Shown: positions 2,094 to 64,000, numbered from the stretch's first letter. The stretch is DNA of 64,000 nt from a virus (IMGVR_UViG_3300036770_008730), one strand, 5' to 3'. Program-made: numbers and translations. Notes: generated from the letters alone by a model not told the origin.

Positions 2094-3026
2094 ATGGTAA
2101 AAAGATGGCATGAATTTATAAGAGAATTTGTTGAAAACTCTAATAATATTATTGATATTAAAATGCAAGAGTTGAGAGATTTAATTGATAGTTTCTCAAA
2201 TGGCCAAAACATCATATATGAATGGGAAAATATGAATGACCATCAGTTAGATGTTGCATTTAGTTACGAAGGTTTATCTATTAAATATGAATTTGATATA
2301 GACCAAATGAAAGTTACTAAAATCTCAGGAGATGTTGTTGATTTTACAACTGAAGTGGAGTCAATTGATGAAGGACTTGATGTTATTGAAAAGGACATAC
2401 ATTTTGTATTAGGTGTTTCTGAAAGTTACAGTCCAGAATATGATTCATCTTTGTCAGAAGAAGAGGTTAGAGAAGTGGTGAGAAAAATTAGGAATTTTGC
2501 AAAAATTGAAGTTATAGACAATACAGCAGATGTTGAAGGATTAGTAGAAGAGTTACAAAAATCTTTATCGAACTATGATAAAGAAACTATTGATTTAGTT
2601 ATCGACACTACTCTATTCGGTGATGATTCTGATAATTGGGAAGATTGGGCGATTGAACAAATCATTCAAACTGGTGATAAAATAATGAGTAAACATGGAA
2701 CAGAACCAACTCAAATTTTAAATGCTTATGATAACTCATTTCAGTATTTACGAAAATATTTTAGATGGGAAGATGATGTTTTTGAATCAAAGAGTGGAAG
2801 ACCTAGATCTCAAAGATATAAAGGTCGTAAAATACCAGGTAAGTATCTGACTAAAAATCCAAAAGCGATGAAAAGAGAAATTGATACTTACAGAGGTAAA
2901 AAAGAATATAAAAAAGATTGGGATGCTGATTATAAATCTGGTAAAGGTGGTAAAGGTAAAAGAGTAAAGACAAAAAAATCAGCGGCTACTCTAGCCTATG
3001 AGAAAAAATTTAAAAATAAAGAATAA
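2094..3026 (+). CDS. Putative internal head protein: acidic body with a very basic C-terminal domain
   Basis: N-terminus MVKRWHEFIRE (capsid-targeting-like); C-terminal GRPRSQRYKGRKIPGKYL...KTKKSAATLAYEKKF. Confidence 0.7.
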   Translation: MVKRWHEFIREFVENSNNIIDIKMQELRDLIDSFSNGQNIIYEWENMNDHQLDVAFSYEGLSIKYEFDIDQMKVTKISGDVVDFTTEVESIDEGLDVIEKDIHFVLGVSESYSPEYDSSLSEEEVREVVRKIRNFAKIEVIDNTADVEGLVEELQKSLSNYDKETIDLVIDTTLFGDDSDNWEDWAIEQIIQTGDKIMSKHGTEPTQILNAYDNSFQYLRKYFRWEDDVFESKSGRPRSQRYKGRKIPGKYLTKNPKAMKREIDTYRGKKEYKKDWDADYKSGKGGKGKRVKTKKSAATLAYEKKFKNKE

Positions 3027-3028
3027 CT

Positions 3029-3427
3029 ATGGAACATTTATTAAGTTTTGAAGATCTATTTGAAGATTATTCTAAGTATTTAGAATCAGAGGATTTTGAA
3101 TTACAGGATGACTTTGACACCGAGATGGTTGAAGAAGATTTAGAAGAAAATGAAGAACTTTATGAAAAAAAGAAAAGTGGTGTAACTGCTTCACTAAAAA
3201 AGAAATCTAAGGCATCTGGAATTCCTATGGGAATTTTAAGAAAAGTATTTTCAAAAGGAATGCAAGCTTGGAACGCAGGTCATAGACCTGGTGTTGCACA
3301 ACATCAGTGGGGAATGGGTAGAGTAAATAGCTTTATTACCGGTGCGGGTGGAGCTAGAAAATCAGATGCTAAACTTTGGGCACAAGCTAAGAAAGCTAAA
3401 GCAAGAAAAAAGAAAAAGAAAAAATGA
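3029..3427 (+). CDS. Putative internal head protein with basic SGIPxxILxxVxxKGxxAW..GHRPG..QWGxxRV domain (DUF5824-like, from memory)
   Basis: Acidic N-half, Lys-rich C-half ending KARKKKKKK; ATGA overlap with the SET gene. Confidence 0.7.
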   Translation: MEHLLSFEDLFEDYSKYLESEDFELQDDFDTEMVEEDLEENEELYEKKKSGVTASLKKKSKASGIPMGILRKVFSKGMQAWNAGHRPGVAQHQWGMGRVNSFITGAGGARKSDAKLWAQAKKAKARKKKKKK

Positions 3428-3912
3428 AATACGTAAAGTTATTTGAAGAATTCAGCGCTGTAAAAAAATCATCGAAAAAAGAATCTTTGAAGAAAGGTAA
3501 AATTGAAGTTAAAACCTCAACAATACCAAATGCTGGTAAAGGTTTATTCGCCTTACAAGATTTCTCTAAGGGTGATGAGATCTGTGAATTTACTGGAAAA
3601 GAAGTAAGTAAAGAAGAAATTAAAAAACTTACAGGAACAAGAGCTGAGTATTTGATTGGAAAGGATGATGGATCAACTGTGGATGTCTATAACTCAAAGA
3701 GTCCAGCAAAGTATTCAAATGACCACGATGGATATTTAAAAGCTACAAAGAAGACTGGCTTTGAAAAGAAGAACAACTGTGAAATTATGGAACTAGATAA
3801 TGGTGAGTTGTGGCTTATAGCTACCAAAAAAATCAAAGAAGGTGATGAAATCTTCTGTTCTTATGGTTCAAGTTATTGGACAAATTGGTTAAAAAGTAAT
3901 AAAGAAAAATAA
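3424..3912 (+). CDS. SET-domain protein (putative protein lysine methyltransferase)
   Basis: STIPNAGKGLFA (SAM-binding GxG), DEICEFTG, AKYSNDH (R-x-x-NH-like), EIFCSYGSSYW (ELxxxY). Confidence 0.85.
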   Translation: MKYVKLFEEFSAVKKSSKKESLKKGKIEVKTSTIPNAGKGLFALQDFSKGDEICEFTGKEVSKEEIKKLTGTRAEYLIGKDDGSTVDVYNSKSPAKYSNDHDGYLKATKKTGFEKKNNCEIMELDNGELWLIATKKIKEGDEIFCSYGSSYWTNWLKSNKEK

Positions 3913-3916
3913 TAAC

Positions 3917-4318
3917 TTATCTAACCAAAGGTTTGATTTGCTCTTCAAATATTCTTTGAATTTCTTTTAATTTCTTTCTTGTTGTTTTTACATCTAATTG
4001 AATTCTCCAGTTTTTTACTTGATTATCATCATCCTCTGGTACCTCTTCTATTATCAACTCTGAATCAAAATGGTCAATTCGTTCAAAAAGTAATTTGCCA
4101 TCTTCATCAACAGCATTTGACATACCTTCTTCATCTGATATCATTCTACCACCAACACGAGGATTCTCTTCTGACCAACCTCCATAAATAATGTGATATT
4201 CTCCGTTTTTAGTTGGTGTGATTGTGTGTCCCTCAGATAGGATAAGTGTTCTATTTTTAACACCAAGTATACTAGTAGTAATATACCAATCTTTTTTTAA
4301 TTTGAAATCTGGTAGCAT
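3917..4318 (-). CDS. Hypothetical protein
   Basis: 133-aa ORF filling the gap between convergent and divergent genes. Confidence 0.6.
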   Translation of the reverse strand: MLPDFKLKKDWYITTSILGVKNRTLILSEGHTITPTKNGEYHIIYGGWSEENPRVGGRMISDEEGMSNAVDEDGKLLFERIDHFDSELIIEEVPEDDDNQVKNWRIQLDVKTTRKKLKEIQRIFEEQIKPLVR

Positions 4319-4389
4319 AAAATTTGTATTTAGTAAAGAAAATAAGTTGTAGAAAATAATATATAAGTAGTAAAATTATAAAATTTAAT

Positions 4390-5640
4390 ATGATTAAGAA
4401 ATATACAGGATTCCTATTAGAAAACTTTAGATACAATGCTACTCTTATATTAGAAGCTCAATTATCAGCAACTGGTGGTTTTTTAGATAAACTCGATACT
4501 ATCTCAAAAGAAAAAGGAATGGCTGGTGAAATTGCAAAAAATATAAAAGATTTTATAGAGAAAGAGGGTTGGGTAAGTGATGATAACATTAAACAAAATT
4601 ACTTTGATACCACTGAAAAAGAAGATATGATTTCTTTTTTAATGCAAAGTAAGTTACCAAAGGATTGGGATGAAGAAGTTGACCCTTCTCTTCCATACAA
4701 CACAAAAGGTAGAACAGAAGTAAAAGTTTCCAAGATAATCAAATACATCGTCACTCTTATGGATGCCGAAGGTGAGTGGAATAGTGTTCCACCAAAAGAT
4801 AAAGATATAGAGGCATTTGTAAATGCATTTAAAGCAACAAAGGCATCTACTGACTTTAAGTTCAAAGAAATAAAAGGTGATGAAATTGCTAAGTATTACA
4901 ATCAAAAGAAATATTTCAATTCATCAGGAACACTTGGTGGATCTTGCATGGCTGATGAATCAAAAGGAACATTTAAGATTTATAGTCAAAATGAAACTAA
5001 AGTTAAGTTGTTGGTCTTTATAGATGAAAAACAAGATAAAATATCTGGAAGAGCGATTCTTTGGAAACTGAGTAAATCACCATGTGATGCAAATTGGTTT
5101 ATGGATAGAGTATATACAAATAGAGACTCTGACTTTATTAAGTTCAAAAATTATGCTGAAGAAAAGGGTTATTTATACAAATCTATTATGAATAGTCATA
5201 CCAGTGAAAATGTAAAGTTTAGATACAAAGGTTCGGATGTTCAAGGTATAGTAAAAGTAAAATTAGACGGTTCAGCAAAAAGTTATCCTTTTATCGACAC
5301 AATGTGTTTCCTAAATAAAGATAAAACTGAGTTAAGTAATGTTCCATCAGTAGGAAGCTTTTTTCTTCATTCAGTGTCTGGTGATTGTGACCACTGTAGT
5401 GATTGTGATGGGAAGATGTTTATTTGTGACGACTATCAGTGTGGATATAATAATGGTGAGATTGATTGTGATGAATGTAATTCTTCAGGAATGGTTGATG
5501 GAAAAAAATGTACCAGTTGTAAGGGTACTGGTTATATAAAATGTGATCATCCAAATACTGAAATTTGCAATGATTGTTGTGATGGATTAATGACTTTAGG
5601 TGTCAGAACAGTTGAAGACCTTAAGAAGATATCTAAGTAA
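4390..5640 (+). CDS. Hypothetical protein with C-terminal DnaJ-type CxxCxGxG zinc-binding region
   Basis: CSDCDGK, CDECNSSG, CTSCKGTG; central GSCM...GRAILW...MDRVY block; N-terminus MIKKYTGFLLE. Confidence 0.75.
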   Translation: MIKKYTGFLLENFRYNATLILEAQLSATGGFLDKLDTISKEKGMAGEIAKNIKDFIEKEGWVSDDNIKQNYFDTTEKEDMISFLMQSKLPKDWDEEVDPSLPYNTKGRTEVKVSKIIKYIVTLMDAEGEWNSVPPKDKDIEAFVNAFKATKASTDFKFKEIKGDEIAKYYNQKKYFNSSGTLGGSCMADESKGTFKIYSQNETKVKLLVFIDEKQDKISGRAILWKLSKSPCDANWFMDRVYTNRDSDFIKFKNYAEEKGYLYKSIMNSHTSENVKFRYKGSDVQGIVKVKLDGSAKSYPFIDTMCFLNKDKTELSNVPSVGSFFLHSVSGDCDHCSDCDGKMFICDDYQCGYNNGEIDCDECNSSGMVDGKKCTSCKGTGYIKCDHPNTEICNDCCDGLMTLGVRTVEDLKKISK

Positions 5641-6607: not shown

Positions 6608-7216
6608 TTACATAGAAGGCTGATTCTCATCATCGTCATCATCTCCGACTTCTTCATCTTCCCAATTAGAATCATCATCAACCTCCTCTTCTTCATATTC
6701 ATCTTCAGGAAGTTCTCCTGTCTCATACTCATCAAATTCTTCTTCATACTCTGCATCAAATTCATTATCTTCTTCATCATCTTCATGATCGTGTGATGGA
6801 GATCCGTGATTCATTAAGAAATTATGAACGTGTTCTAGGTTTTCACAAGAAACCGATATGTGGTCTGAAGCCCAATCATGTTCTTTGAGTATCTCATCAA
6901 CTTCCTCTTGTGATAAATTCATAATAGCATCAATATATCTTTGCATTGTTTGAAGATTTGCAAAGAACATATAGTTACTTGTTGTTTGGTGTTCATTAAA
7001 GCTTTTAAGTCTTTTAGATTCATTTTGTTTCATGAAATCTGGTTCCTCAGAAAGATTATAAGGATTTTCTTGAGCTTCTTGTTTTTCATATTCAGTAAAC
7101 TCACCTGTTGGATTATTAACATCATATTCACCAGAATGTGTTTCCGGTTTATCGTCGGAATAAACTTCTGTTTCTTCTGGTAAGTTAAAATGTTCAAATT
7201 TTTTAATATTTTTCAT
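6608..7216 (-). CDS. Highly acidic putative internal head protein
   Basis: MKNIKKFEHF start, second motif ESKRLKSFNEH, long D/E C-terminal tail. Confidence 0.75.
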   Translation of the reverse strand: MKNIKKFEHFNLPEETEVYSDDKPETHSGEYDVNNPTGEFTEYEKQEAQENPYNLSEEPDFMKQNESKRLKSFNEHQTTSNYMFFANLQTMQRYIDAIMNLSQEEVDEILKEHDWASDHISVSCENLEHVHNFLMNHGSPSHDHEDDEEDNEFDAEYEEEFDEYETGELPEDEYEEEEVDDDSNWEDEEVGDDDDDENQPSM

Positions 7217-7259
7217 AGTTAATTCGTTATTTATTAGGTTATATATTAGAATTGAAAAG

Positions 7260-8609
7260 TTATTTTAATACAGTAATAACTTCTGGATACCACTCTATAG
7301 CTTCTTTATTCTTTTCAGGATAGTTTAAAACTGAAAGTGCATATCTGATAGCATTCAGTCTTCCAATCTTTTTATCATTTGAATTTACAACGACCCAAGG
7401 ACATTTAGAACTGGATGTTCTGTTAAACATTTGATTTTTATAATTTGTGATTAAGTCATACTTATCTACAACTCTAGCATCATTAGGTGAGAATTTCCAA
7501 AATTTAAGTGGGTTAGTTTGTCTTAATTTGAATCTTTCTTTTTGTTTTTCTTCAGTAATTGAGAACCAAAACTTGATAAGTATTATTCCGGAATCGACCA
7601 AACTTTCTTCCCACGGAAGAACTTTCTCCATAAAGTCTTTATATTCTTCTTCTGTGCAATATCCATTTACTGGTTCAACAACAGCTCTATTATACCAACT
7701 TCTATCGAAGTAAACTATTTCTCCTGGATTTGGTAAATTCCTTTCATATCTTGAAAACCAATTTTTTCTTTCTTCTTCTGTTGGTATTCCCAAACCAGCA
7801 ACAACTCTTGCAACACCAGGTATTGCATTTAACATAAATCTTTTAATCGAAGATCCTTTGCCAGCGGAATCTCTACCTTCAAAAATTATGGCTACACGTT
7901 GTTTTTTATAACCAGGAATTGGTTCAAATCTGTATTTTTGTGTGGTGTCCATACCATCAACTTCTCTTAAAAACTTATGTCTTGTTCCTTCACCTGGAGT
8001 AGTATTTTTTCCAAGTTTTTCTTGATTTTCTTTCCAAGCTTTTATTTTCGATTGATATGCGTCATTAGCATCTGAAGTTTTAATCCTCTTTCCACCTTTT
8101 ACCCAACATTGAAGTTTTATCAACTCATCTTGAAGTTCTTCTTCTTCTGGTTGATAAACAGAACCTCTTATCAAAGAACTTTCTCCTTCTTCCGAGTCGA
8201 AATGTTCAGAGTCTTCTCCTCTAATTTGACCTGATTCAATTGATTCAAATCTTTCATCTAAGCTTTCTATGAAATTATCAAATTCTAATCGGATTAATTT
8301 CTTAGTATCTTTTCTTTTTAACTCTAGCAATTGATGGATTTTTATCAAGAATGTTTTGACATTCAAATCTCTTATTAGTTCTTCAGTAAATTCATTTGTA
8401 AGCTCTCTTATAGCAGTATTAAGATTAAAAAAGTCATCTGCTTCATAGCTAACTCCTCCACCTAATTTGTCTAACTTGATGTTTACTAATATAGATTCTT
8501 TATATTCTTGTAATCTATCAGTTAAGTTATATTTTATTTGTTGAAGATTCTCCTTAGAAAGGTTATTTAGTTCTTCATTTATAAACTTTAAATAATCTAA
8601 AATTTTCAT
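7260..8609 (-). CDS. ppk2: Polyphosphate kinase 2 with N-terminal extension and internal insertion
   Basis: Walker A FEGRDSAGKG, Walker B/lid FDRSWYNRAVVEPVNG, LIKFWFSIT, PLKFWKFSPND. Confidence 0.93.
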   Translation of the reverse strand: MKILDYLKFINEELNNLSKENLQQIKYNLTDRLQEYKESILVNIKLDKLGGGVSYEADDFFNLNTAIRELTNEFTEELIRDLNVKTFLIKIHQLLELKRKDTKKLIRLEFDNFIESLDERFESIESGQIRGEDSEHFDSEEGESSLIRGSVYQPEEEELQDELIKLQCWVKGGKRIKTSDANDAYQSKIKAWKENQEKLGKNTTPGEGTRHKFLREVDGMDTTQKYRFEPIPGYKKQRVAIIFEGRDSAGKGSSIKRFMLNAIPGVARVVAGLGIPTEEERKNWFSRYERNLPNPGEIVYFDRSWYNRAVVEPVNGYCTEEEYKDFMEKVLPWEESLVDSGIILIKFWFSITEEKQKERFKLRQTNPLKFWKFSPNDARVVDKYDLITNYKNQMFNRTSSSKCPWVVVNSNDKKIGRLNAIRYALSVLNYPEKNKEAIEWYPEVITVLK

Positions 8610-8627
8610 ATTATTATATATTAAAAT

Positions 8628-43708: not shown

Positions 43709-44107
43709 ATGATAAAGAAATGGAACGAATATAACGAAGAAGTCTCTTGGTTTTCGAAAAAAGAAGAAAAACCTTCTGACATAACTCCAAAGGGTATAAT
43801 GTCTACTGTTTATCCAGAAGGTGGTAAATTAACATCATATTCTGATGTAAAGGTAAATCCACCACAAAAAAATCCATTAGTTGATGATAAAGTTGATAAA
43901 TCTCTAATACAAGAAATATCTGATAGACTATATGGACCTGATTCGGAAGAATATATCGCAGCTATAAAAGAACTGAATAGTAAATTCAGAAGAGCTAATG
44001 TTTTAGTGGGTCATCAAATGAGAAATCAAGATACCGTGGAAAGAGAAAAACGTAGAGCTGAAGCTGAGCGTGAACTTGCTAACAAATATGGTAGAACTAA
44101 TCCATAA
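43709..44107 (+). CDS. Putative internal head protein
   Basis: MIKKWNEYNEE start; AAATATATA 4 nt upstream. Confidence 0.65.
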   Translation: MIKKWNEYNEEVSWFSKKEEKPSDITPKGIMSTVYPEGGKLTSYSDVKVNPPQKNPLVDDKVDKSLIQEISDRLYGPDSEEYIAAIKELNSKFRRANVLVGHQMRNQDTVEREKRRAEAERELANKYGRTNP

Positions 44108-44164: not shown

Positions 44165-45862
44165 ATGGCTTCTTATAATAACTTCAATAGCTCTTCAAAT
44201 ACCGGTGGTTTTATTCAAAATTCAGCTGTTGAAAACAAAGGTTTATTCAGTAGAATACTAAGAAATCTATCATCATATGGTATGAATTATGATGATATGA
44301 TTATTCGTAATCAAGTTGGTATTGGTGTTAATGAAGATCCATATGCTGCAAGAGGAAATTCAATGTATGATTTTTTTTCACAGAGAGCTGTAGCTTCTGT
44401 TTTGAATCGAAAATCAATTCCTTATTTAGATAAATCTTATGCTGATAAAAGAAGAATTTTAAGAGAGTATTCTATAAAAGATGAGATACGAGACTTTGTA
44501 AGTTCTCTTTCAGATGAATGTATTATTTACAATGATGAGAGAGATTTTTGTTTTCCAAAAAAAATATCAAATGAATATCCTCAGGAAATTCAAGATAAAT
44601 ATCAAGAATACTTTGAAAAAGTCTATATTAAGTATGGATTTAGTGATAATATCAGTGCTTGGAGTATGATGAAAGACTTCCTTATTGATGGTTATTTAGC
44701 AGTAGAGATAGTCTATGATGATAAAAAGAAAAATATTATTGCTTTCAATAGATTAAGACCTGAGACTTTAGTTCCAGCATATGAACCAAATGTTGGTCAT
44801 CTTTGGATTCAATTTCCAGAAGATCCACAATTAAGAAGAATATTTTTAGATTCTCAAATTGTTTTTATTTCTTACTCTTCTCAGAACGATTATAGTGAGA
44901 CTTCCTATGTTGAGGGTTTAATTAAACCATATAATCAGTTAAAGATTTTAGAACAAACTAGAATTATGTTTAACGTTATTAATGCTACTATGTATCAAAA
45001 GTTTACTATACCAATTAAAGGTATGTCAAGACAAAGAGCTGAAGAGCAAATTGGGCAATTGATACAGGATTACTCAGAGGAAGTAGAATGGGATGATACA
45101 CTTGGTACGTTAAGCATCAATGGTTCAAAACATTTACCTTATAATAAGCAGATTTGGTTTCCTGATGGTGATGCTGGTACACCTAATATGGAATTAGTTA
45201 GTCAAGAAGGTCATAACTTGAATGAACAGGATATGTTGACTTGGTTTTTTAATGCTCTTAAAAGAGCGTCGAGAATACCACTTCAAAGATTTGAAAAAGA
45301 AAGTGGTGGTGGTAATTTAATTACTGATGCTGCTGAGATGACAAGAGATGAGATTAAGTTTTATAATTTTATCAATAGAATAAGGGCTAATTTCAAAGAG
45401 TTAATAGTTAAGCCTCTTAAATTACAAATGTTAATTGAATTTCCAGAATTAAAAGATGATGAGGTTTTCATAAATCAAATAGACATTGGATTCAATACTA
45501 ATCAAGTTTTTGAAGAGTGGAAGAAACTGAATAATATGAGTAAGAAGGCCGAGATTTTTGGAACTTTAATTGGTATTATGAATGGTGAAAAGCCTTATTT
45601 CCATATCGAGTATTTAATTGATAATGTTTTCAAACTTACGGCTGAAGAAAAGGCTGAGAATCAAAAGTATTGGGCTAAGGATGCGGCCGCTGCTGGTGCC
45701 GCTGCTCCCGCTGAGGGTGGTGCTCCTGCTGAAGGTGGTGGTGAAGCTCCTCCTGCTGAGGGTGGTGAAGCTCCTCCTGCTGAGGGTGGTGGTGAAGCTC
45801 CTCCTGCTGAGGGTGGTGGTGAAGCTCCTCCTGCTGAAGGTGGTGGTGAATTTGAATTTTAA
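44165..45862 (+). CDS. gp20: Portal vertex protein (T4 gp20-like)
   Basis: DFLIDGYLAVEI, LIKPYNQLKILE, KRASRIPLQRF, ITDAAEMTRDEIKFYNFINRIRANF; upstream of the protease and capsid genes. Confidence 0.9.
   Translation: MASYNNFNSSSNTGGFIQNSAVENKGLFSRILRNLSSYGMNYDDMIIRNQVGIGVNEDPYAARGNSMYDFFSQRAVASVLNRKSIPYLDKSYADKRRILREYSIKDEIRDFVSSLSDECIIYNDERDFCFPKKISNEYPQEIQDKYQEYFEKVYIKYGFSDNISAWSMMKDFLIDGYLAVEIVYDDKKKNIIAFNRLRPETLVPAYEPNVGHLWIQFPEDPQLRRIFLDSQIVFISYSSQNDYSETSYVEGLIKPYNQLKILEQTRIMFNVINATMYQKFTIPIKGMSRQRAEEQIGQLIQDYSEEVEWDDTLGTLSINGSKHLPYNKQIWFPDGDAGTPNMELVSQEGHNLNEQDMLTWFFNALKRASRIPLQRFEKESGGGNLITDAAEMTRDEIKFYNFINRIRANFKELIVKPLKLQMLIEFPELKDDEVFINQIDIGFNTNQVFEEWKKLNNMSKKAEIFGTLIGIMNGEKPYFHIEYLIDNVFKLTAEEKAENQKYWAKDAAAAGAAAPAEGGAPAEGGGEAPPAEGGEAPPAEGGGEAPPAEGGGEAPPAEGGGEFEF
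45704..45850 (+). repeat. GC-rich coding repeat (PPAEGG(G)EA)n at the portal C-terminus
   Basis: 24/27-bp units read directly. Confidence 0.9.
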
Positions 45863-46429: not shown

Positions 46430-48595
46430 ATGAAACCGGTTCTAATCGTAGAAAATTCAACTTCTTCTCTTCTCAGAGAGAATAATAGTGGCAGAAAAGA
46501 TTATGTGTTAGGTGGTACTTTTACAGAGTTTGGTGTTAAAAACCGTAACGAAAGAGTATATACAGCAGATAAATTTCTTCCAGCATTAGATGAACTTAAT
46601 GAGAGAATGAAAACGCTTGGTGCAGTTTACGGAGAATTCGATCATCCAGATGTTTTTGATACATCTTTATCAAGAGCATCACACGTTATCACAAAGGCAG
46701 AATACTTAAAAGAATCCAATAAAGTTACTGGTGAAATCAGACTACTTAGTACATATTGGGGTAAAGAAGCTAAGTCTTTGGTAGATGATGGATGTCCTGT
46801 CTTCGTATCTTCAAGAGCGGCTGGTGTTACAGAGTCTGATGGTTCTGTTTCTCTAAAAAAATTGTTCACATATGACATCGTTGCTGACCCAGGTTTTGCT
46901 TCTGCAAAAATGAGTGTTAAAAGTCTTAACGAGTCACTTGGATACAACCCAAAATCTAACTTTAGGATATATGAAATGTCCGATGAGTCCAAAATAAATG
47001 AACTATTCAATATGAATAAAGATGAATTTGTAACAAAAAAACAATTAACTGATTACTCTAAATATTTAGTTAATGAATTAGCTTCTACAAAGAAAGAAGT
47101 TAAGAGTGCAATTTCAAAAGGGAATATGAATCCTAAGAAATTGGAGCAGTTACTTGAATACTACGAAGAATTAAATAAGACAAACGGTCAAGTTGTTAAA
47201 TACTTAGACTATTTGGCTGAGAAAGTACAAGTAATGGTAAATGAAAACAAGTCTTTAAAAGCGACTACTGATAAACTTATTAAACACAATGATTATTTAG
47301 CAGAGAATTTAGAAAAAGCGGTAAACTATTCTGAATACTTAGCAGAAAATCTTGACAAAAACATTGAGTATTCTGAATACTTAGCAGAAAACTTAGATAG
47401 AAATATTTCTTATTCTGAGTATATCGCTGAAAATTTAGATAAAAACATTTCTTATTCTGAATACTTAGCAGAAAACTTAGATAAGAATATTGCTTACTCT
47501 GAGTATATCGCAGAAAACTTAGATAAGAATATCGCTTATTCTGAGTATATCGCAGAAAACTTAGACAAAAACATTGGATATTCTGAATATTTAGCTGAGC
47601 ATGTTGACAATTCAATTGCTTATTCTGAATATTTAGCTGAGCATGTTGAAGGTAACATCGCTTACTCTGAATACATTGCTGAACATTTAGATGATAACAT
47701 TGCTTATTCTGAGTATATCGCAGAAAATCTTGATAAATCAATTTCTTATCAGTCACTAATTACTGAAAAATTAAATGGTACAAGATTAAACGAAAATAAT
47801 GATCATGACGCTTTACCTGGAGTAAATGTTGTTGGTATTGAAAATGTTGAAGATGCTGACAATGATGATAATTGTGGACCAGTTAAAAATAATGATGGAG
47901 ACGATGATGATGCTGACTTAGCTGGTATCAGTCATGGTAATCCAGAAAATAAATGGAATAAAGAAAATAATGATGGAGACGGTGATGCTGATGGAGATGC
48001 TGATGCTGATGCTGATGGAGACGGAGCTTATGGACATGATGGTGCACATAACAACGCTCACTTAGAAGGTAACTCTGATTCTGAATTATCAAAATCTATT
48101 AATAAATTAATTGAAGAAGCTAAAAAACGTAAAGTTTCTGAAACAACTGACTTGAATTTCTTAAAGTTCTTAAACAAGTCACAAGTTGATAGCTTTTATG
48201 CACTTACAGAGAGTGAACAAGAAACTGTTAAACTTCACATAAACGAAAGAAGTTATTTCACACAAAAAGAAGTATTGTCTCTAATTGCAGAAGCTTTGTC
48301 TACAAAGAATGAATCTATCGAAGAAAGAGTAATCAGATTGATGCCTGAAAACATTAAGCCAATCTGGAATCAGTTAAATGAGTCTTCTAAAAAATCAGTG
48401 CTTTCACAAGCTAGATTATATCCAGAAGATGTATTAAAAACTGAAAATCAAGTTGAACATTTCTGGTTAACCAGAAATCTCAAAAAAAATGAGTCTGTAA
48501 CTAAAAAGTTAGTAGCACACGAAAGTTTAATACAAGAAGATAAACTTTCAGATAAAGATGTGAAAGCTATTATGGAAAGATTCAAAACAATTTAA
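46430..48595 (+). CDS. gp21: Prohead protease (gp21-like) fused to a scaffold (gp22-like) region
   Basis: GVKNRNERVY, GEFDHP, VSSRAAG, TYDIVADPGFASA; then coiled coil, 14-aa repeats and acidic linker. Confidence 0.88.
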   Translation: MKPVLIVENSTSSLLRENNSGRKDYVLGGTFTEFGVKNRNERVYTADKFLPALDELNERMKTLGAVYGEFDHPDVFDTSLSRASHVITKAEYLKESNKVTGEIRLLSTYWGKEAKSLVDDGCPVFVSSRAAGVTESDGSVSLKKLFTYDIVADPGFASAKMSVKSLNESLGYNPKSNFRIYEMSDESKINELFNMNKDEFVTKKQLTDYSKYLVNELASTKKEVKSAISKGNMNPKKLEQLLEYYEELNKTNGQVVKYLDYLAEKVQVMVNENKSLKATTDKLIKHNDYLAENLEKAVNYSEYLAENLDKNIEYSEYLAENLDRNISYSEYIAENLDKNISYSEYLAENLDKNIAYSEYIAENLDKNIAYSEYIAENLDKNIGYSEYLAEHVDNSIAYSEYLAEHVEGNIAYSEYIAEHLDDNIAYSEYIAENLDKSISYQSLITEKLNGTRLNENNDHDALPGVNVVGIENVEDADNDDNCGPVKNNDGDDDDADLAGISHGNPENKWNKENNDGDGDADGDADADADGDGAYGHDGAHNNAHLEGNSDSELSKSINKLIEEAKKRKVSETTDLNFLKFLNKSQVDSFYALTESEQETVKLHINERSYFTQKEVLSLIAEALSTKNESIEERVIRLMPENIKPIWNQLNESSKKSVLSQARLYPEDVLKTENQVEHFWLTRNLKKNESVTKKLVAHESLIQEDKLSDKDVKAIMERFKTI
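47327..47746 (+). repeat. Ten tandem 42-bp repeats encoding YSEY(L/I)AExxxxxxx
   Basis: Units counted from 47327 to 47746 with exact 42-bp period. Confidence 0.92.
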
Positions 48596-48673: not shown

Positions 48674-50368
48674 ATGTCACACATTAGAATAGACAAACAA
48701 AAAGCAGTTAAGAAATGGGCTCCAGTGTTGGAGAACATGGGTGTAACTGGTGAGAGAGTTGACTGGATGGCTGAATACGCTGAGTTCCACTCAATTAATG
48801 AAAATGCATACGTAAACGCTTCTAACGTAGCGGGTATGGGTGCTGTTTTTAATCCAACTGTAGGTACATTAGCTGGTAGCCCAACATTAGGTGGAGCACT
48901 TGCTGGTTCTGGAGATGTAGGTCAAAACTTACTTCCTGTAGCTATGAAAATTGCAGCTCAAACAATCGGTTTAGATTTAGTAGCTGTAAAACCTTCTCCA
49001 GGTCCAAAAATTGACTTACTTTATATCGATTTCCGTTATGACGATACTCGTGAAGGTAACTTAGATGAGAGACCACAAGTTTTCAAATTTAATCAAACTA
49101 CTTGGTTATCTGCTATTCAAGCAGCAATCAGAGCTGATTTAACTGTTGCTGGTGGTGCTCCTGCTGCTATTAGCGAATCAACTGGTGGTTTATCAAACGG
49201 TAGAGTATGGTATAATATCAATGATGGTAGTGTAACTTATACTGATCCAGGTTCTGGTTCAAAAGCTAACTTAGTTGAGTTCTTAGGTTTCTCTCGTATT
49301 GATGGTTATCCAATGTTCAGAGCTTACAGACAAAATAATACAGCTCATACAGCTACTAACCCAGCTGGTGGTTCTACATTATGGTCATTTGATGCTACTA
49401 GAAATACATTCAATGCAACACAGTCAATGACTGATCAAATCGTATTAATCGCTGGTGTTACTGCTTCGGGTGGTGCTGTTGAATTAGTATCTGCTCTTGA
49501 AGATCATATCCCAGGTTTCTCTGCAAACTGGACATCTGCATCTTCTGGAAGTGCTGCTGGTTCTTATCCAATGTCTCGTCAAGATGATGATGATACATAT
49601 GCAGGTGTTATTGGTCCTAAGATTTCTTCTAAAACTATCGCAGTTGGTACTATTGAAGTATCTTCAGCTTTAAGAAGAACTGAAATCGAAGATATCAAAG
49701 CTAACACAGGTATGGATATCGTTCAAAAAATGGAATCTATCTTAGTTAATGAATTATCTCAAACAATCTCTAAGCAAATTGTTGCTAAGATTTTTGAAAT
49801 GGGTGCGTTAAACAGATCTACTGCTCCTTTAAGAAGTGGTGCATCTATCTTTGACTTAGATACAAATTATGCATATGGTGCTTCTAGTCCGGGTGGTGAA
49901 ACTACACACGCGGTTCAACGTAAGTTAATCACTAAGATTGCTCACGCTTCTAACTATATCGCAACTGAAGGTCGTGTTGGTCCTGCTCAATACCTTATCA
50001 CAAACGGGGGTCTTGCAGCTGCTTTATCTGATATTGCTGGTTATACAATTAACCCTTTAAAATCTAAAATGAATACACAAGGTCAACTTTACCCAGTTGG
50101 TTCAATCGGTGATATTTCAATTTATGTTGACCCATATATGAAGTACAACGATAACAGAATCGTTTTAGGTCGTAAAAATAATCCTGACCAACCAGGTATC
50201 ATTTTCGTTCCTTACTTAATGGCTCAGTCTATTTCGGTTATCTCTGAAGCTACATTCGCTCCAAGAATGTTGTTAAGAAGCCGTTACGCTGTAGCAGAAG
50301 TAGGTTGGTTCCCACAAAAACAGTTCATGCAAATCAATGTAACTGATGGACAAGGATTTCTTAACTAA
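48674..50368 (+). CDS. gp23: Major capsid protein (T4 gp23-like)
   Basis: KKWAPVLE, LLPVAMKIAAQTIGLDLVAVKP, VYVDPY-like segment, FVPYLM, PRMLLRSRYAV. Confidence 0.92.
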   Translation: MSHIRIDKQKAVKKWAPVLENMGVTGERVDWMAEYAEFHSINENAYVNASNVAGMGAVFNPTVGTLAGSPTLGGALAGSGDVGQNLLPVAMKIAAQTIGLDLVAVKPSPGPKIDLLYIDFRYDDTREGNLDERPQVFKFNQTTWLSAIQAAIRADLTVAGGAPAAISESTGGLSNGRVWYNINDGSVTYTDPGSGSKANLVEFLGFSRIDGYPMFRAYRQNNTAHTATNPAGGSTLWSFDATRNTFNATQSMTDQIVLIAGVTASGGAVELVSALEDHIPGFSANWTSASSGSAAGSYPMSRQDDDDTYAGVIGPKISSKTIAVGTIEVSSALRRTEIEDIKANTGMDIVQKMESILVNELSQTISKQIVAKIFEMGALNRSTAPLRSGASIFDLDTNYAYGASSPGGETTHAVQRKLITKIAHASNYIATEGRVGPAQYLITNGGLAAALSDIAGYTINPLKSKMNTQGQLYPVGSIGDISIYVDPYMKYNDNRIVLGRKNNPDQPGIIFVPYLMAQSISVISEATFAPRMLLRSRYAVAEVGWFPQKQFMQINVTDGQGFLN

Positions 50369-50435: not shown

Positions 50436-50852
50436 ATGAAGTATATCAAATATTTTGAAGGTAAAAAAGATAAATTTCCTAATCTTAAAAAGATTGAAAA
50501 GGATGAATTTGTAATATATGTAGGTGGTGATGCTAAATCTAATGACTATCTCACCTTCAATATGGCTAATGATGATGATATTTGGTTACATGCTATGGGT
50601 CTTCCAGGAAGTCATGTTGTTATCAAAATTAAAAGTTCCCAGAATATACAAGAAAAAACTTTACCTACAGATGTAGTCTTAAGATTTGCAGCTGAGTTGG
50701 CTAAAAAACACAGTAAAGCGCCTAAAGATCAACCCTGTGATGTTAGATGGTGCCAAAGAAAGTTTGTCTATAAAACACCAAATATGAATACAGGTGAAGT
50801 TGGAATAGAAAAGCAAATAGAAATGGATCCTACCAAAAAGATTACAATTTAA
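50436..50852 (+). CDS. Stand-alone NFACT RNA-binding (NFACT-R/DUF814) domain protein
   Basis: VGGDAKSNDYLT...DIWLHAMGLPGSHVVI...AAELAKKHSK...VRWCQRKFVYK. Confidence 0.85.
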   Translation: MKYIKYFEGKKDKFPNLKKIEKDEFVIYVGGDAKSNDYLTFNMANDDDIWLHAMGLPGSHVVIKIKSSQNIQEKTLPTDVVLRFAAELAKKHSKAPKDQPCDVRWCQRKFVYKTPNMNTGEVGIEKQIEMDPTKKITI

Positions 50853-52213: not shown

Positions 52214-52684
52214 ATGAATCTAAAAAAGTTTAATCAATTTGAAAAATACGAAAGTCCTTGGGATGAAGAAGATGAGTCATATTATAACGATGATCAATAT
52301 CTTTTTGGAAGACCATATCATTCAAATAAAGACAAAGGCAAATCTGAAGAAGAAGAGGAGGAAGATGAGTATGAAGATATAGATGATGATCAGAATGAGG
52401 ATATTCAACACTTGATGGATTTATTGAGAACCTATTTTGAAAACCAAGGTGTAGAAGTAGATATAGAAAATAAAGGATTAGATATCACAATATCAACTTA
52501 TCTTAATAAAGTAGAGAAATTAAAAAATATCATTAAAGTTTTTAACATAGTTAAAAAAGTTAAAAAAGATATTTTACCACAATATGAATCTGAGTTTGAA
52601 CTATGGGAAACAAAGGATAAAAGTCCTGTGCTTTATTTTAGTTTTTACTATGAAGGTGATTTCGATGATGAAAAACCATTCTAA
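52214..52684 (+). CDS. Acidic putative internal head protein
   Basis: MNLKKFNQFEKYE start; poly-E/D tract. Confidence 0.7.
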   Translation: MNLKKFNQFEKYESPWDEEDESYYNDDQYLFGRPYHSNKDKGKSEEEEEEDEYEDIDDDQNEDIQHLMDLLRTYFENQGVEVDIENKGLDITISTYLNKVEKLKNIIKVFNIVKKVKKDILPQYESEFELWETKDKSPVLYFSFYYEGDFDDEKPF

Positions 52685-53094: not shown

Positions 53095-53098
53095 CATT

Positions 53099-53124
53099 AA
53101 AAGTCCACTTTGGTGGACTTTTTT
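53099..53124 (+). terminator. Terminator after the tmRNA
   Basis: aaaagtccac-tttg-gtggactttttt. Confidence 0.88.
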
Positions 53125-53145
53125 AGTTTAAAACATATAAATTAA

Positions 53146-62348: not shown

Positions 62349-62369
62349 TTATATTTTTATATATAGTTT

Positions 62370-62744
62370 ATGGATTTAAACTTCATAGATTTTTATATTC
62401 TTTATCCTGGTCATCCAGGTTATTCCTCAATTGAATTAATAGAGGATGATTTAACTAAAGTAATAGTTCAAAAATACCAAATGATTATCTTTACAAATAA
62501 AGGAGATGTTTTTGGTTTACCAGACTTGGGTGCGAATCTACTTGAATTATTACATGATACTAGCTATTCCGCCCAGACTGTTGAGGAAGATTTAAATAAT
62601 CAGATTAGATTGTATATTCCTGAACTACAGAATCTTGAGTACGATATAAAAGTTAGCTTTTTTCAACATCCTGAAAGATTTGAAGAATTTATGGTTATAG
62701 ATTTTAGTTTTAATGGTATGTTAGTCTCTACAATAGTTCAATAA
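62370..62744 (+). CDS. Baseplate wedge gp25-like protein
   Basis: TNKGDVFGLPDLGANLLELL matches the gp25 xGE....PxxG..l..lL pattern. Confidence 0.6.
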   Translation: MDLNFIDFYILYPGHPGYSSIELIEDDLTKVIVQKYQMIIFTNKGDVFGLPDLGANLLELLHDTSYSAQTVEEDLNNQIRLYIPELQNLEYDIKVSFFQHPERFEEFMVIDFSFNGMLVSTIVQ

Positions 62745-62928
62745 AGTCTTTGAAATTTAATACCGATTCTTTCATCATTTTTTTAAAAATACCCATTGTA
62801 TAAGCCCAATTATCTCTTTTACCTTTTCTTTCCTTAGATAGTTTTTTTGCCTTCTGCCATCTTTCTTCTACTTCCGATATTTTCATCTTTTTTTTCTTTG
62901 CTAATTTTTTCACATAACTTGTTGGCAT
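62728..62928 (-). CDS. Small basic protein
   Basis: Lys-rich 66 aa, W..AK...WAYTMGIFK; C-terminal ESVLNFKDF. Confidence 0.6.
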   Translation of the reverse strand: MPTSYVKKLAKKKKMKISEVEERWQKAKKLSKERKGKRDNWAYTMGIFKKMMKESVLNFKDFIELL

Positions 62929-62979
62929 AAAATCAATTTACTTTTTCATATATATTATTTTTTAATATATAAAACTTCA

Positions 62980-64000
62980 ATGAAATATTTAGTTAAGTTT
63001 AAATTATTTGAGGAAATAAATTATAGAGATATCTCTGAAATTGTAACAGGGTTTGATGATTACTTTACCGTATCTTTTGAATTTGAAATCGAAACTGAAA
63101 GTCAAGATGATATAAAATTAAACTTTGAAGATTTAGATGATGAGATTGCTGAGGACATCATTGCCATAATTTTTAAAGATTTAGAAGTAAGAGGTAGAAC
63201 TAATAAAAAGTTTGTTAGAGATTTAGTTTATTCACTTTTAGACTATGTAGATAATGATGTTATTGATATAGAAACATATAATTCGATGTTTTCTGATGGA
63301 GTCGCTTCAAATAGCGAACAGATAAATATACTTAGACATGCAAAGGCTGTAATATCTAGTTTTATCGGCATTGAGGATTTGACACATCTTAAAAAGATGG
63401 TAAAATTACATTTATCTGACTTTTATAGAAAATGGTACAGAAGGATTGATTTTATTGGTGATGCTACCTTAGATAGGGGTATAGAAATTAAACCTAAAAC
63501 ATATCTAAAAAGTATTTCTGAATCTATTGAAATGTTGAACGACTTTTTTACAAATATGAAATCTCAGGATTATTGGGTTTTTTCGGAAAGAACTGGACTA
63601 CATATAAATGTTGGAACAAATAAAAAAAGTGAGTGGAATTCGATTAAAGGTCTATTGATTTTAAATGATATTTCAAAATCTGGAACACCTCTAGTATTTA
63701 AAGATATGACCTGGCGAATGAATAATAACTTTTGTGGATCACTTATATCTCAAATAAATAATATGAGTGATATTGAAAAATTAGATTTAAAATCTAAGAT
63801 TGATTTAAATAATGTCAACTCAGCAGAAGATATACTAAATCAATTTTTAGTAGAAAGAATAAAACTATGGGGTGTCAAAAACTTTGGATTTAATATAACA
63901 AAACTAGATCAGAATTATGTTGAATTTCGATATGTTGGTGGTATTATAAATTCAGAAGTTGTAATTGAAAAGCTTAAATATTTCTGTTTTTTGGTTTATT
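62980..64000 (+). CDS. Putative amidoligase (COOH-NH2 ligase type 2), partial at the window edge
   Basis: Not in the ORF track. Open from ATG 62980 to the end: SFEFEIE, GDATLDRGIEIKP, TGLHINVG, KNFGFN, YVEFRYVGG. Confidence 0.8.
   Translation, partial: MKYLVKFKLFEEINYRDISEIVTGFDDYFTVSFEFEIETESQDDIKLNFEDLDDEIAEDIIAIIFKDLEVRGRTNKKFVRDLVYSLLDYVDNDVIDIETYNSMFSDGVASNSEQINILRHAKAVISSFIGIEDLTHLKKMVKLHLSDFYRKWYRRIDFIGDATLDRGIEIKPKTYLKSISESIEMLNDFFTNMKSQDYWVFSERTGLHINVGTNKKSEWNSIKGLLILNDISKSGTPLVFKDMTWRMNNNFCGSLISQINNMSDIEKLDLKSKIDLNNVNSAEDILNQFLVERIKLWGVKNFGFNITKLDQNYVEFRYVGGIINSEVVIEKLKYFCFLVY

What the first reader, a model, noticed from the sequence alone, without database searches (positions are those of the whole stretch)
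2094..64000. Candidate injected enzyme cargo: at least 11 proteins share a T4-like capsid-targeting N-terminus, including SET, PPK2, nucleotidyltransferase, NFACT-R and amidoligase
Seen: unrelated proteins begin with the same short motif, M-(K/I)-x-x-(K)-x-(F/W/Y)-x-(E/x)-F...E. Examples are 2094 MVKRWHEFIRE, 3029 MEHLLSFEDLFE, 3424 SET MKYVKLFEEF, 4390 MIKKYTGFLLE, 7216(-) MKNIKKFEHF, 8609(-) PPK2 MKILDYLKFINEE, 42240 NTase MYKFYEF, 43709 MIKKWNEYNEE, 50436 NFACT-R MKYIKYFE, 52214 MNLKKFNQFEKYE and 62980 amidoligase MKYLVKFKLFEE. All lie behind the TAATATATA late promoter, directly or within its operon. Tail proteins, GS, Dam, NADAR and replication proteins lack the motif. Known: T4 internal proteins IPI-III carry MKT(Y/F)xEF(I/L)xE, which targets them to the prohead and is cut after Glu by gp21. 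Inference: the phage preloads a lysine methyltransferase, a polyP-driven NTP generator, a nucleotidyltransferase, an RNA-binding domain and a peptide ligase, and delivers them before any phage gene is expressed.
Basis: partly seen in the sequence, partly recalled or inferred. Interest (0 to 1): 0.82.

Follow-up and report, generated by a model that had tools for sequence, protein, structure and literature searches.

The report
T4-like capsid-targeting leaders, huge phage
In this stretch of a roughly 0.6-Mb uncultured phage, about ten unrelated proteins (including SET, PPK2 and NFACT-R enzymes) start with a short tag that statistically matches the signal phage T4 uses to load proteins into its head, so the phage probably packages a large, varied protein cargo, but packaging and injection have not been shown.

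Summary
All quoted N-termini are present. The shared leader is far beyond chance: six window proteins score at least 13 bits with models trained on other phages, against 0 of 235 internal-Met controls. In a complete 635-kb relative, 131 of 907 genes carry it, against 0.23% of controls. The leader is conserved as a peptide, not as DNA. It is kept in type across orthologues, absent from cellular SET homologues, and absent from three equally AT-rich related jumbo phages. A model built only from these phages ranks T4's IPI, IPIII and IPII at 1, 6 and 7 of 269 T4 genes. The window also holds a T4-type head module: gp20 portal, gp21-like protease fused to a repeat scaffold, and gp23 capsid protein. 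Leader genes are enriched behind the AATATATA motif that also precedes head and fibre genes. Leaders usually end in hydrophobic-x-Glu followed by Ser/Ala. Of the 11 listed proteins, six are robust, four are supported by orthologues or a T4-core pattern, and one (3029) is doubtful. The amidoligase call is only a lead. Packaging, cleavage and injection remain inferences. This scan reported the same system earlier in neighbouring windows of this genome. Verdict: a new, massively expanded variant of the T4 capsid-targeting sequence.

The parts
2094..3026 (+). 310-aa protein of unknown function. Leader MVKRWHEFIRE, the T4-core type (W-H-E-F-I-R-E against T4 Y-Q-E-F-I-A-E).
   Evidence: 6.3 bits here, but the orthologue in LR745206 begins MIKKWNQFIRE and scores 12.8 bits. 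AATATATA at 2081-2088. No Pfam or PHROG hit.
3029..3427 (+). DUF5824 protein beginning MEHLLSFEDLFE. Doubtful leader.
   Evidence: Pfam DUF5824, 8.9e-15. Leader score 6.6-7.5 bits, reached by 2 of 235 controls. In the operon behind 2094.
3424..3912 (+). SET-domain methyltransferase. Leader MKYVKLFEEF, then a K/S-rich linker, then the SET domain.
   Evidence: Pfam SET, 4.2e-11. Leader 21.5 bits. Phage orthologues keep leader and linker; cellular homologues, including one from Flavobacterium, lack both. AF2 model: helix 2-10 and linker at low confidence, confident fold from about residue 27.
4390..5640 (+). 416-aa protein of unknown function. Leader MIKKYTGFLLE.
   Evidence: 8.9 bits. Orthologue begins MLTKYESFLLE (8.2 bits) and a paralogue MIKKYLDFIKE. 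AATATATA at 4358-4365.
6608..7216 (-). 202-aa protein of unknown function. Leader MKNIKKFEHF.
   Evidence: 16.5 and 13.9 bits; 0 of 235 controls reach this. AATATATA at 7240-7247(-).
7260..8609 (-). PPK2 with a 234-aa N-terminal extension beginning MKILDYLKFINEE. Probable T4-core-type leader.
   Evidence: Pfam PPK2, 1.6e-67, at residues 235-435. Only 4.6 bits on the leader model. However, 15 orthologues at 51-98% identity (plus the LR745206 orthologue from its likely true start) keep M-K-x-L-x-Y/F-I/L-K-F-I-N-E. AATATATA at 8615-8622(-).
42234..42998 (+). Nucleotidyltransferase-like protein (weak call) beginning MVMYKFYEF.
   Evidence: Pfam MTPAP-like domain, 18.8 bits, below the cut-off. phrog_36119. 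The leader is degenerate here (3.4 bits), but orthologues begin MKLxKFYEF. AATATATA at 42218-42225.
43709..44107 (+). 132-aa protein of unknown function. Leader MIKKWNEYNEE.
   Evidence: 12.6 and 13.3 bits. Some orthologues lack the leader. AATATATA at 43697-43704.
44165..45862 (+). Portal protein of the T4 gp20 family. No leader.
   Evidence: Pfam Portal_T4, 1.7e-54. AATATATA at 44134-44141.
46430..48595 (+). Prohead protease (gp21-like, about aa 5-300) fused to a scaffold-like C-terminal part. The presumed enzyme that removes the leaders.
   Evidence: phrog_207 head maturation protease, 2e-30. Pfam Peptidase_S77, 24.1 bits, just under the cut-off. BLASTP against T4 gp21: 27% identity over 150 aa, E 2e-6, with the GE(F/L)xHP His and the VSSR Ser aligned. 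AATATATA at 46395-46402.
47315..47737 (+). Ten tandem 14-aa units (K-N-I-A-Y-S-E-Y-I/L-A-E-N-L-D) inside the protease-scaffold protein. Each carries an I/L-A-E site, and the core YSEYIAE is close to the T4 CTS core YQEFIAE.
   Evidence: Translation. Exact period of 14 residues, with 9-12 units in 81 of 82 relatives.
48674..50368 (+). Major capsid protein of the T4 gp23 family. No leader.
   Evidence: Pfam Gp23, 5.8e-28. BLASTP against T4 gp23, 3e-9. AATATATA at 48640-48647.
50436..50852 (+). Stand-alone NFACT-R protein. Leader MKYIKYFE, then G-KKDKFP.
   Evidence: Pfam NFACT-R_1, 3.5e-14. 12.9 bits. In 48 distinct orthologue N-termini the leader sequence and length vary, but the leader almost always ends in Glu followed by S/G-KKDKFP. 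AATATATA at 50424-50431.
52214..52684 (+). 156-aa acidic protein. Leader MNLKKFNQFEKYE.
   Evidence: 14.1 and 16.6 bits. Orthologues begin MKLKKYNNYLKE, MKLKNYKELFE and similar. In the operon behind 50872, whose AATATATA is at 50856-50863.
62980..63999 (+). Amidoligase-like protein, cut off by the window end. Leader MKYLVKFKLFEE.
   Evidence: 14.4 and 19.0 bits. No Pfam or PHROG hit. Atlas feature match of 0.94 to viral clusters in which 20-58% of members carry Amidoligase_2. The LR745206 orthologue lacks the leader. AATATATA at 62964-62971.

Best explanation
The shared N-termini are a genuine, portable, roughly 9-14-residue leader peptide. Its consensus is M-(K/R)-x-(I/L)-K-K-(F/Y)-x-x-(F/Y/L)-x-E. 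A sub-class reads aromatic-x-x-F-(I/L)-x-E, like T4's MKTYQEFIAE. The leader is the counterpart of the T4 capsid targeting sequence in a clade of 0.6-0.7-Mb phages.

Proposed mechanism, all steps inferred:
1. Leader-tagged proteins are made late, together with portal, protease-scaffold and capsid protein.
2. The leader brings them into the scaffold core of the assembling prohead.
3. The gp21-type protease then cuts after the Glu of the hydrophobic-x-Glu site that ends the leader.
4. The mature proteins stay inside the head with the DNA and most likely leave with it at infection.

Shown here: the leader exists, is selected as a peptide, is modular, resembles the T4 signal, and coexists with a T4-type head module and the shared upstream motif.
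For: Beyond chance:
- 42 clustered N-termini among 221 unrelated families, against 0.11 in controls.
- Six window genes at 13 bits or more, against 0 of 235 controls.
- 131 of 907 genes (14.4%) in the complete relative LR745206, against 7 of 3062 internal-Met windows. Four or five of those seven are probably mis-called starts.

Selected as a peptide, not as DNA:
- Leader codon usage equals body usage. The same-codon rate is 0.63 against 0.555 expected.
- Orthologue leaders differ in sequence and length but keep the pattern.

Modular:
- Phage SET orthologues carry leader plus linker; cellular homologues lack both.
- The amidoligase-like and 43709 orthologues in LR745206 lack the leader.
- The cargo bodies are unrelated: SET, PPK2, NFACT-R, Nudix, cyclase, Acb1-like, exonuclease.

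T4 likeness:
- An HMM trained only on these phages ranks T4 IPI, gp61.1, IPIII and IPII at 1, 2, 6 and 7 of 269 T4 genes. Chance is about 4e-4 if IPII and IPIII count as one (my arithmetic).
- The T4-core pattern is enriched 7.8-fold at N-termini.

Machinery: Portal_T4, Gp23, and a gp21-like protease with aligned His and Ser, in the order portal, protease-scaffold, MCP.

Cleavage-site-like end:
- Hydrophobic-x-E occurs in residues 6-15 of 82% of leaders, against 21-22% of controls.
- The next residue is S, A or G in about half of cases.
- The [IL]-x-E-[SA] or E-[SG] junction is kept in nearly all members of two orthologue families.
- gp21-family proteases cut after Glu in an x-x-E motif (PMC5694885).

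Co-expression proxy: AATATATA lies upstream of 44-50% of leader genes against 13-20% of other genes, odds ratio 3.9-5.5. The same motif precedes portal, protease, MCP and fibre genes.

Not a composition effect: 0 leaders in the head regions of the equally AT-rich LR756500, Lak-A1 and PTm1.
Against: - There are no virion, cleavage or injection data for this phage or any relative, and no cultured member of the clade.
- The match to T4 is limited to M-K-x-hydrophobic-x-x-F plus a later Glu. The commonest leader form (MKYIKxFExF) differs from MKTYQEFIAE after the Phe.
- The bare 4-residue T4 core is not enriched at N-termini.
- P3 of the putative site is often F or Y rather than T4's L or I.
- The Glu and Ser statistics are partly circular, because the model that selects leaders contains those columns.
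- Only about half of the leader genes have the upstream motif directly. That the motif is a late promoter is itself inferred.
- Leader proteins are acidic (median pI 4.9), unlike, from my own knowledge, the basic T4 IPII and IPIII.
- 14% of the proteome would be an unprecedented cargo diversity.
Confidence: 0.6

Rival explanations
1. The leader is real and functional but is not a capsid address. It could set protein stability, set another location in the infected cell, recruit a chaperone, or boost translation of near-leaderless late mRNAs. One stability route would be cleavage after Glu exposing F, Y or L as an N-degron for a ClpS/ClpAP route.
For: - The AATATATA motif often starts only 12-13 nt before the ATG, so many of these mRNAs may have almost no 5' UTR.
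- The residue at +3 after the anchor is F, Y or L in 76% of leaders, and a Glu often precedes it.
- An earlier scan note reports a ClpS gene nearby; I did not check this.
- Nothing here shows capsid location.
Against: - Conservation is at the peptide level, not the codon level.
- Non-leader genes with the same 12-nt spacing exist in equal numbers.
- The model picks out exactly the proteins of T4 that are experimentally capsid-targeted.
- A complete T4-type head module with a gp21-like protease is present.
Confidence: 0.2
2. The leader does target proteins to the prohead, but they are not injected effectors. They would act inside the head (core or inner-body mass, DNA packing, head maturation), or be degraded and expelled like scaffold.
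For: - In T4, the scaffold and core proteins gp22, gp67 and gp68 are also gp21 substrates and are destroyed (PMC5694885).
- About 90% of leader proteins in LR745206 have no recognisable domain, and they are acidic as a class.
- The scaffold itself carries ten CTS-like heptads.
Against: - Several cargo proteins are enzymes with no obvious role inside a capsid: SET, PPK2, NFACT-R, Nudix, cyclase and an Acb1-like phosphoesterase.
- In T4, the CTS-bearing internal proteins are ejected, and IPI* acts against host restriction (PMC3012670).
Confidence: 0.15
3. The resemblance is a by-product of AT-rich coding (abundant K, N, I, F, Y, E) and the usual Met-Lys start of well-translated genes.
For: - The genome is about 30% GC.
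- The 4-residue T4 core is no commoner at N-termini than after internal Met.
Against: - 63-fold excess over internal-Met windows of the same proteome.
- 0 leaders in three related jumbo phages of 25-30% GC.
- Orthologue-level conservation of the pattern.
- Absence from cellular homologues.
Confidence: 0.02

Closest known systems
Capsid targeting sequence (CTS) of phage T4 internal proteins IPI, IPII and IPIII (Mullaney & Black 1996; reviewed in PMC3012670 and PMC5694885)
   Same: - A 10-20-residue N-terminal tag on otherwise unrelated proteins.
- The shared pattern M-K-x-hydrophobic-x-x-F followed by a Glu.
- It sits beside a gp20, gp21, gp23 head module.
- The model trained on these phages ranks the T4 IPs at the top of the T4 proteome.
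- A sub-class of leaders (W/Y-x-x-F-I-x-E) is nearly identical to T4's YQEFIAE.
   Different: - Scale: about 130-145 proteins, or 14% of the genes, against a handful in T4.
- The commonest form, MKYIKxFExF, diverges from T4 after the Phe.
- The cargo includes recognisable enzymes and is acidic as a class.
- The protease is fused to a repeat scaffold.
- There is no experimental proof of targeting or cleavage.
T4 Alt (ADP-ribosyltransferase packaged in the head, processed by gp21 and injected)
   Same: It is a precedent for an enzyme that is loaded into a T4-type head, trimmed by the prohead protease, and active on arrival (annotation; PMC5694885).
   Different: Alt's own N-terminus (MELITELFDE) is not of the IP type. 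It is a single enzyme, not a family of more than 100 tagged proteins.
Long propeptides of ejection proteins in phiKZ-like giant phages such as SPN3US, phiKZ and 201phi2-1 (PMC5694885)
   Same: These are giant phages with a gp21-family protease that cuts after Glu. [quoted passage not shown]
   Different: Those propeptides are mostly 80-130 residues long and are not a shared short motif. Eight of about 50 head proteins are processed in SPN3US. Here, a 10-residue consensus is shared by more than 100 proteins.
N-terminal packaging signal of phage P1 DarB (PMC9024508)
   Same: A short N-terminal segment (30 residues) is sufficient to send a large anti-restriction enzyme, or a reporter, into the capsid for delivery.
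   Different: The sequence is unrelated, the head lineage is not T4-type, and the signal is known for one protein.

Membership tests
T4-type capsid targeting sequence (CTS) | A short (10-20 aa) tag at the extreme N-terminus of otherwise unrelated proteins | tested here: met
   The leader occupies residues 1 to about 9-14. The bodies carry SET, PPK2, NFACT-R, Nudix, cyclase and other unrelated domains. The AF2 model shows a separate short helix plus linker.
T4-type capsid targeting sequence (CTS) | Sequence resembles MKT(Y/F)xEF(I/T)xE | tested here: met
   The HMM trained only on these phages ranks IPI first, IPIII sixth and IPII seventh of 269 T4 genes. The T4-core pattern is enriched 7.8-fold at N-termini. 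Caveats: the commonest leader form differs after the Phe, and the bare 4-mer core is not enriched.
T4-type capsid targeting sequence (CTS) | Ends in a prohead-protease site (x-x-Glu, cut after Glu) | tested here: inconclusive
   Hydrophobic-x-E is present in 82% of leaders against 21-22% of controls, followed by S, A or G in about half. The Glu junction is kept in nearly all members of the NFACT-R family and family 21. This is sequence evidence only, is partly circular, and P3 is often F or Y.
T4-type capsid targeting sequence (CTS) | Encoded by a phage with the gp20 portal, gp21 protease, scaffold core and gp23 capsid system | tested here: met
   Pfam Portal_T4 and Gp23; PHROG head maturation protease; BLASTP against T4 gp21. 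Gene order is portal, protease-scaffold, MCP.
T4-type capsid targeting sequence (CTS) | Made late, together with the head proteins | tested here: inconclusive
   The AATATATA motif shared with head and fibre genes is enriched upstream of leader genes, odds ratio 3.9-5.5. No timing data exist. The metatranscriptome contigs covered only the protease, MCP and an intergenic RNA.
T4-type capsid targeting sequence (CTS) | Sufficient to load a foreign protein into the prohead; tag removed; protein present in virions and ejected | not testable with these tools
   This needs virion proteomics or a reporter-fusion experiment. No cultured relative carries the leaders (PTm1 has none in its head region).
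Peptidase S77 (T4 gp21 prohead protease) | Significant profile or sequence match to gp21, with the active-site His and Ser conserved | tested here: met
   phrog_207, 2e-30. BLASTP against T4 gp21, E 2e-6, 27% identity over 150 aa, with GEFDHP aligned to GELNHP and VSSRAAG aligned to VSSRGLG. That these are the catalytic residues is from my memory of the gp21 structure paper. The Pfam S77 score of 24.1 bits is just below the 27-bit cut-off.

The most novel reading that the evidence does not exclude
The largest known phages (0.6-0.7 Mb) use one 10-residue address label to load more than 100 different, fast-evolving proteins into the head. About 14% of their genes would be involved. The cargo would include chromatin-type (SET), polyphosphate (PPK2), RNA-binding (NFACT-R) and nucleotide-signalling or anti-defence enzymes (Nudix, cyclase, Acb1-like). 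The phage would deliver this ready-made takeover and counter-defence proteome with the DNA. The tag is gained and lost on individual genes, so cargo membership would be an evolvable switch.
Probability: 0.4. Interest if true: 0.85.

Novelty: new variant of a known kind. Interest (0 to 1): 0.72.

Why it matters
If the tag works as in T4, part of the puzzle of what huge phages do with their extra genes would have a concrete answer. A large share would encode proteins that travel inside the particle and act before any phage gene is read. A simple sequence rule would then predict the injected proteome of uncultured phages and point to new anti-defence and host-takeover proteins, most of which have no known domain. 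It would also offer a short portable tag for loading proteins into capsids of phages likely to infect Bacteroidota. In addition, it would extend the T4 capsid-targeting principle, known from a few T-even proteins, to a distant branch of the gp23 capsid lineage. No paper in the searchable library links a capsid targeting sequence with huge metagenomic phages.

Tried and rejected
- **Complex prediction.** I submitted the protease-scaffold protein with residues 1-40 of the SET protein. The result was no verdict, score 0.00, and the controls were not run.
- **Leaders as mimics of the scaffold repeat.** This idea was not supported. A 14-mer repeat HMM scores leaders no higher than controls (p 0.69). 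A 7-mer core PSSM puts 3 of the top 25 hits at N-termini against 1.2 expected (p 0.12). The resemblance of YSEYIAE to T4's YQEFIAE stays an unexplained observation.
- **Bare T4 core.** [FYW]xE[FYW] in residues 3-14 shows no enrichment: 2.4% against 2.5% after internal Met.
- **Solved structures.** A phmmer search of solved structures with the protease found nothing.
- **Own genome.** The window's own genome is not held, so genome-wide counts come from the relative LR745206.
- **Metatranscriptomes.** Only assembled contigs were available. They cover the protease, the MCP and one intergenic RNA, so they give no information on leader genes, transcript starts or timing.
- **Cultured relative PTm1.** No leaders in its head region, so its virion data cannot help.
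- **Amidoligase call.** Pfam and PHROGs found nothing for the truncated protein. Only an Atlas lead exists.
- **RNA genes in the window.** No tRNA or tmRNA by ARAGORN and no Rfam family at gathering score.
- **Extra candidates not accepted as leaders.** 6124-6525(-) MKELNNFIEF (4.5 bits; orthologue 3.6) and 58864-60147(-) MKNLKLELYNF (6.6 bits).

Full report
**What the window is.**
The 64-kb window has about 30% GC. Its nearest database relatives are uncultured phage genomes of 635 and 642 kb (LR745206, LR756502), at 78-80% nucleotide identity over the capsid region. More distant relatives are 636-735-kb metagenomic phages, then Tenacibaculum, Chryseobacterium, Lak and T4-like cyanophages. The window's own genome is not held. 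The window carries a T4-type head module in T4 order:
- Portal, 44165-45862 (Pfam Portal_T4, 1.7e-54).
- A 721-aa protease-scaffold protein, 46430-48595 (phrog_207, 2e-30; Peptidase_S77, 24.1 bits, just under the cut-off).
- Major capsid protein, 48674-50368 (Pfam Gp23, 5.8e-28).
The protease domain aligns with T4 gp21 at 27% identity over 150 residues (E 2e-6). The GE(F/L)xHP histidine and the VSSR serine are in register.

**Checking the observation.**
- Pfam confirms SET, PPK2 (domain at residues 235-435, behind a long N-terminal extension), NFACT-R and DUF5824.
- The nucleotidyltransferase call is sub-threshold.
- Pfam and PHROGs do not recover the amidoligase call for the truncated last gene. 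There is only an Atlas feature match to viral Amidoligase_2-containing clusters.
- Collagen-like tail fibres, GS, Dam, NADAR and the clamp loader are confirmed and have no leader.

**Is it more than chance?**
I fetched 80 related head loci through the capsid protein. I called 1717 genes and grouped them into 221 families.
- An all-against-all comparison of residues 2-12, which assumes no motif, found 42 family representatives with a mean top-5 similarity of at least 22. One hundred control sets of internal-Met windows gave 0.11 on average and never more than 1.
- An HMM trained on 32 families that have no member in the window gave five window N-termini at 10 bits or more, against 0 of 232 controls.
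- With the truncated last gene added, and a second model trained on LR745206, six window proteins score at least 13 bits in both models, against 0 of 235 controls: 3424 SET, 62980, 52214, 6608(-), 50436 NFACT-R and 43709.
- In the complete relative LR745206 (fetched), 131 of 907 called genes (14.4%) reach 8 bits, against 7 of 3062 internal-Met windows. Four or five of those seven are probably true starts hidden by an over-long ORF call. This independently matches the figure of about 125 of 921 that an earlier agent of this scan gave for a complete relative.
- The same model finds 5 leaders among 49 genes around the capsid gene of the 735-kb LR756501. It finds none in the equivalent regions of LR756500, Lak-A1 and PTm1, which are just as AT-rich. 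Composition is therefore excluded.

**Anatomy of the leader.**
Anchored on the first aromatic residue, the consensus is M, K/R, K/H/Y, I/L (87%), K, K/R, F/Y (96%), x, x, F/Y/L (76%), x, E.
- Codon usage in leaders equals that of gene bodies. Identical residues use the same codon only slightly more often than expected (0.63 against 0.555). Selection therefore acts on the peptide, not on a DNA cassette or a translation box.
- Orthologues keep the type but not the sequence. NFACT-R orthologues show 48 distinct N-termini. These vary in sequence and length yet almost always end in Glu followed by S/G-KKDKFP.
- Another family reads M-K-H-L-x-K-F-x-x-Y-[IL]-x-E-[SA], followed by an indel-rich linker and then a conserved domain.
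- In LR745206, 82% of leaders contain hydrophobic-x-Glu in residues 6-15, against 21-22% of controls. The residue after it is S, A or G in about half of cases. This is partly circular, because the model includes those columns.
- The tag is modular. Phage SET orthologues carry the leader plus a Lys/Ser linker. Cellular homologues, including one from Flavobacterium, start directly before the SET fold.
- The AF2 model gives a short, low-confidence helix (residues 2-10), a disordered linker and a confident SET fold from about residue 27.
- The amidoligase-like and 43709 orthologues in LR745206 lack the tag.

- 2094 (MVKRWHEFIRE), 4390 (MIKKYTGFLLE) and PPK2 (MKILDYLKFINEE) score only 4-9 bits. They belong to a second form, aromatic-x-x-[FY]-[ILV]-x-E, which is the core of T4's YQEFIAE.
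- In LR745206 this pattern is on 24 N-termini, 7.8 times its internal rate. About half of these fall below the 8-bit line, so the true total is nearer 145.
- Their orthologues keep the form. The 2094 orthologue begins MIKKWNQFIRE (12.8 bits). Fifteen PPK2 orthologues at 51-98% identity, and the LR745206 orthologue from its likely true start, keep M-K-x-L-x-Y-I-K-F-I-N-E.
- The NTase copy is degenerate here, but its orthologues begin MKLxKFYEF.
- 3029 remains doubtful.
- My tally is six robust, four supported and one doubtful.

**Is it T4-like?**
I read the T4 leaders from the T4 genome: IPII and IPIII begin MKTYQEFIAE, and IPI begins MKTFKEFTST.
- I scored all 269 called T4 genes with the model trained only on the huge-phage clade. 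IPI ranks first, gp61.1 (MKTFKEFIKE) second, IPIII sixth and IPII seventh.
- Among all 1992 ATG-started open frames on both strands, IPI ranks second.
- Counting IPII and IPIII as one event, the chance of this is about 4e-4 (my arithmetic).
- The shared part is M-K-x-hydrophobic-x-x-F plus a later Glu. The bare four-residue core alone does not discriminate.
- According to the literature, the T4 CTS brings internal proteins into the scaffold core, is removed by gp21, and can load foreign proteins. All gp21-family proteases studied cut after Glu (PMC3012670, PMC5694885).

**Expression proxy.**
AATATATA occurs 31 times in the window against 11.6 expected.
- It lies just upstream of portal, protease, MCP, three fibre genes, and 8 of the 11 listed genes. 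The other three are downstream in the same operons.
- Across the related loci, 50% of leader genes have it within 60 nt, against 20% of other genes (odds ratio 3.9). The difference also holds at the family level.
- In LR745206 the figures are 44% against 13% (odds ratio 5.5, p 2e-15).
- That it is a late promoter is inferred from its company and from the analogy with T4's TATAAATA.

**Cargo.**
In LR745206 the 131 leader proteins are spread over the whole genome with some clustering: 44 adjacent pairs against 19 expected.
- Their median length is 161 aa.
- They are acidic, with a median pI of 4.9 against 5.6 for other proteins.
- About 90% have no Pfam domain. The few with one include two Nudix proteins, an adenylate/guanylate cyclase, an Acb1-like 2H phosphoesterase, an RNase T-type exonuclease, M15 and zinc peptidases, and NFACT-R.
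- This profile fits rapidly evolving host-takeover or counter-defence proteins, but that is an inference.

**Conclusion.**
The T4-CTS reading is the best explanation (about 0.6). What is missing is any direct evidence of encapsidation, cleavage or injection. The main rivals are a real leader with another role (0.2) and capsid targeting without delivery (0.15). The composition artefact is excluded for practical purposes. Relative to the literature I could search, no paper connects a capsid targeting sequence with huge metagenomic phages. This is therefore a new, greatly expanded variant of a known mechanism. The same system was already reported by this scan for neighbouring windows of this genome.

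Noticed in passing
window 47315-47737 (+), inside 46430-48595: The protease-scaffold protein holds ten exact-period 14-aa repeats, K-N-I-A-Y-S-E-Y-(I/L)-A-E-N-L-D. The core YSEYIAE shares 5 of 7 residues with the T4 CTS core YQEFIAE, and each unit has an (I/L)-A-E site. There are 9-12 units in 81 of 82 relatives. Leaders as a class do not score above controls against this repeat.
   Followed up: yes
window 52700-53140 (+): A structured non-coding stretch between 52214-52684 and NADAR. It has a 5' GGGGAAGUG, a 3' ...CUUCUCCACCA, and then a terminator hairpin, with z -3.3. Metatranscriptome contigs are identical or nearly so (0-1 differences) over 52775-52949 in two runs from different studies. 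It looks like a divergent tmRNA, but ARAGORN finds none and the Rfam tmRNA match is only a 9.6-bit fragment.
   Followed up: partly
window, for example 50424-50435, 43697-43708, 2081-2093; also LR745206: The AATATATA motif most often starts 12-13 nt before the ATG, leaving only 4-5 nt between motif and start codon. If it is a -10-like late promoter, many late mRNAs would be leaderless or nearly so.
   Followed up: partly
L083 (T4 AF158101) 18966-19130 (-): T4 gp61.1, an annotated 54-aa hypothetical protein, begins MKTFKEFIKE. This is an IPI-type capsid targeting sequence ending in I-K-E. It ranks second of 269 T4 genes on the leader model.
   Followed up: no
window 48674-48760 (+) against T4 gp23 (L082:4945-6510): The capsid protein N-terminus KKWAPVLENMG parallels T4 gp23's NKWKPLLEGEG. 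The propeptide start, including a V/L-L-E site, therefore seems conserved between the two lineages.
   Followed up: no
LR745206 460435-460686 (-) (locus L096): A small 83-aa protein carries two scaffold-repeat-like units (NISYSEYISENLN and NYEDYIAESLE) outside the protease-scaffold gene.
   Followed up: no
window 50872-52212 (+) and relatives (for example L004:12201-13736): The peptidase-like gene next to NFACT-R has no leader here (MAEIKPIF). In some relatives, proteins of about 500 aa that fall in the same family cluster begin with a leader (MNLLKYSQIFE). This may be another case of tag gain or loss.
   Followed up: no
window 55942-56469 (+): A TnsA-like endonuclease N-terminal domain protein (Pfam 1.8e-14) sits in a divergent pair with 55221-55898(-). 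Both lie behind AATATATA motifs.
   Followed up: no
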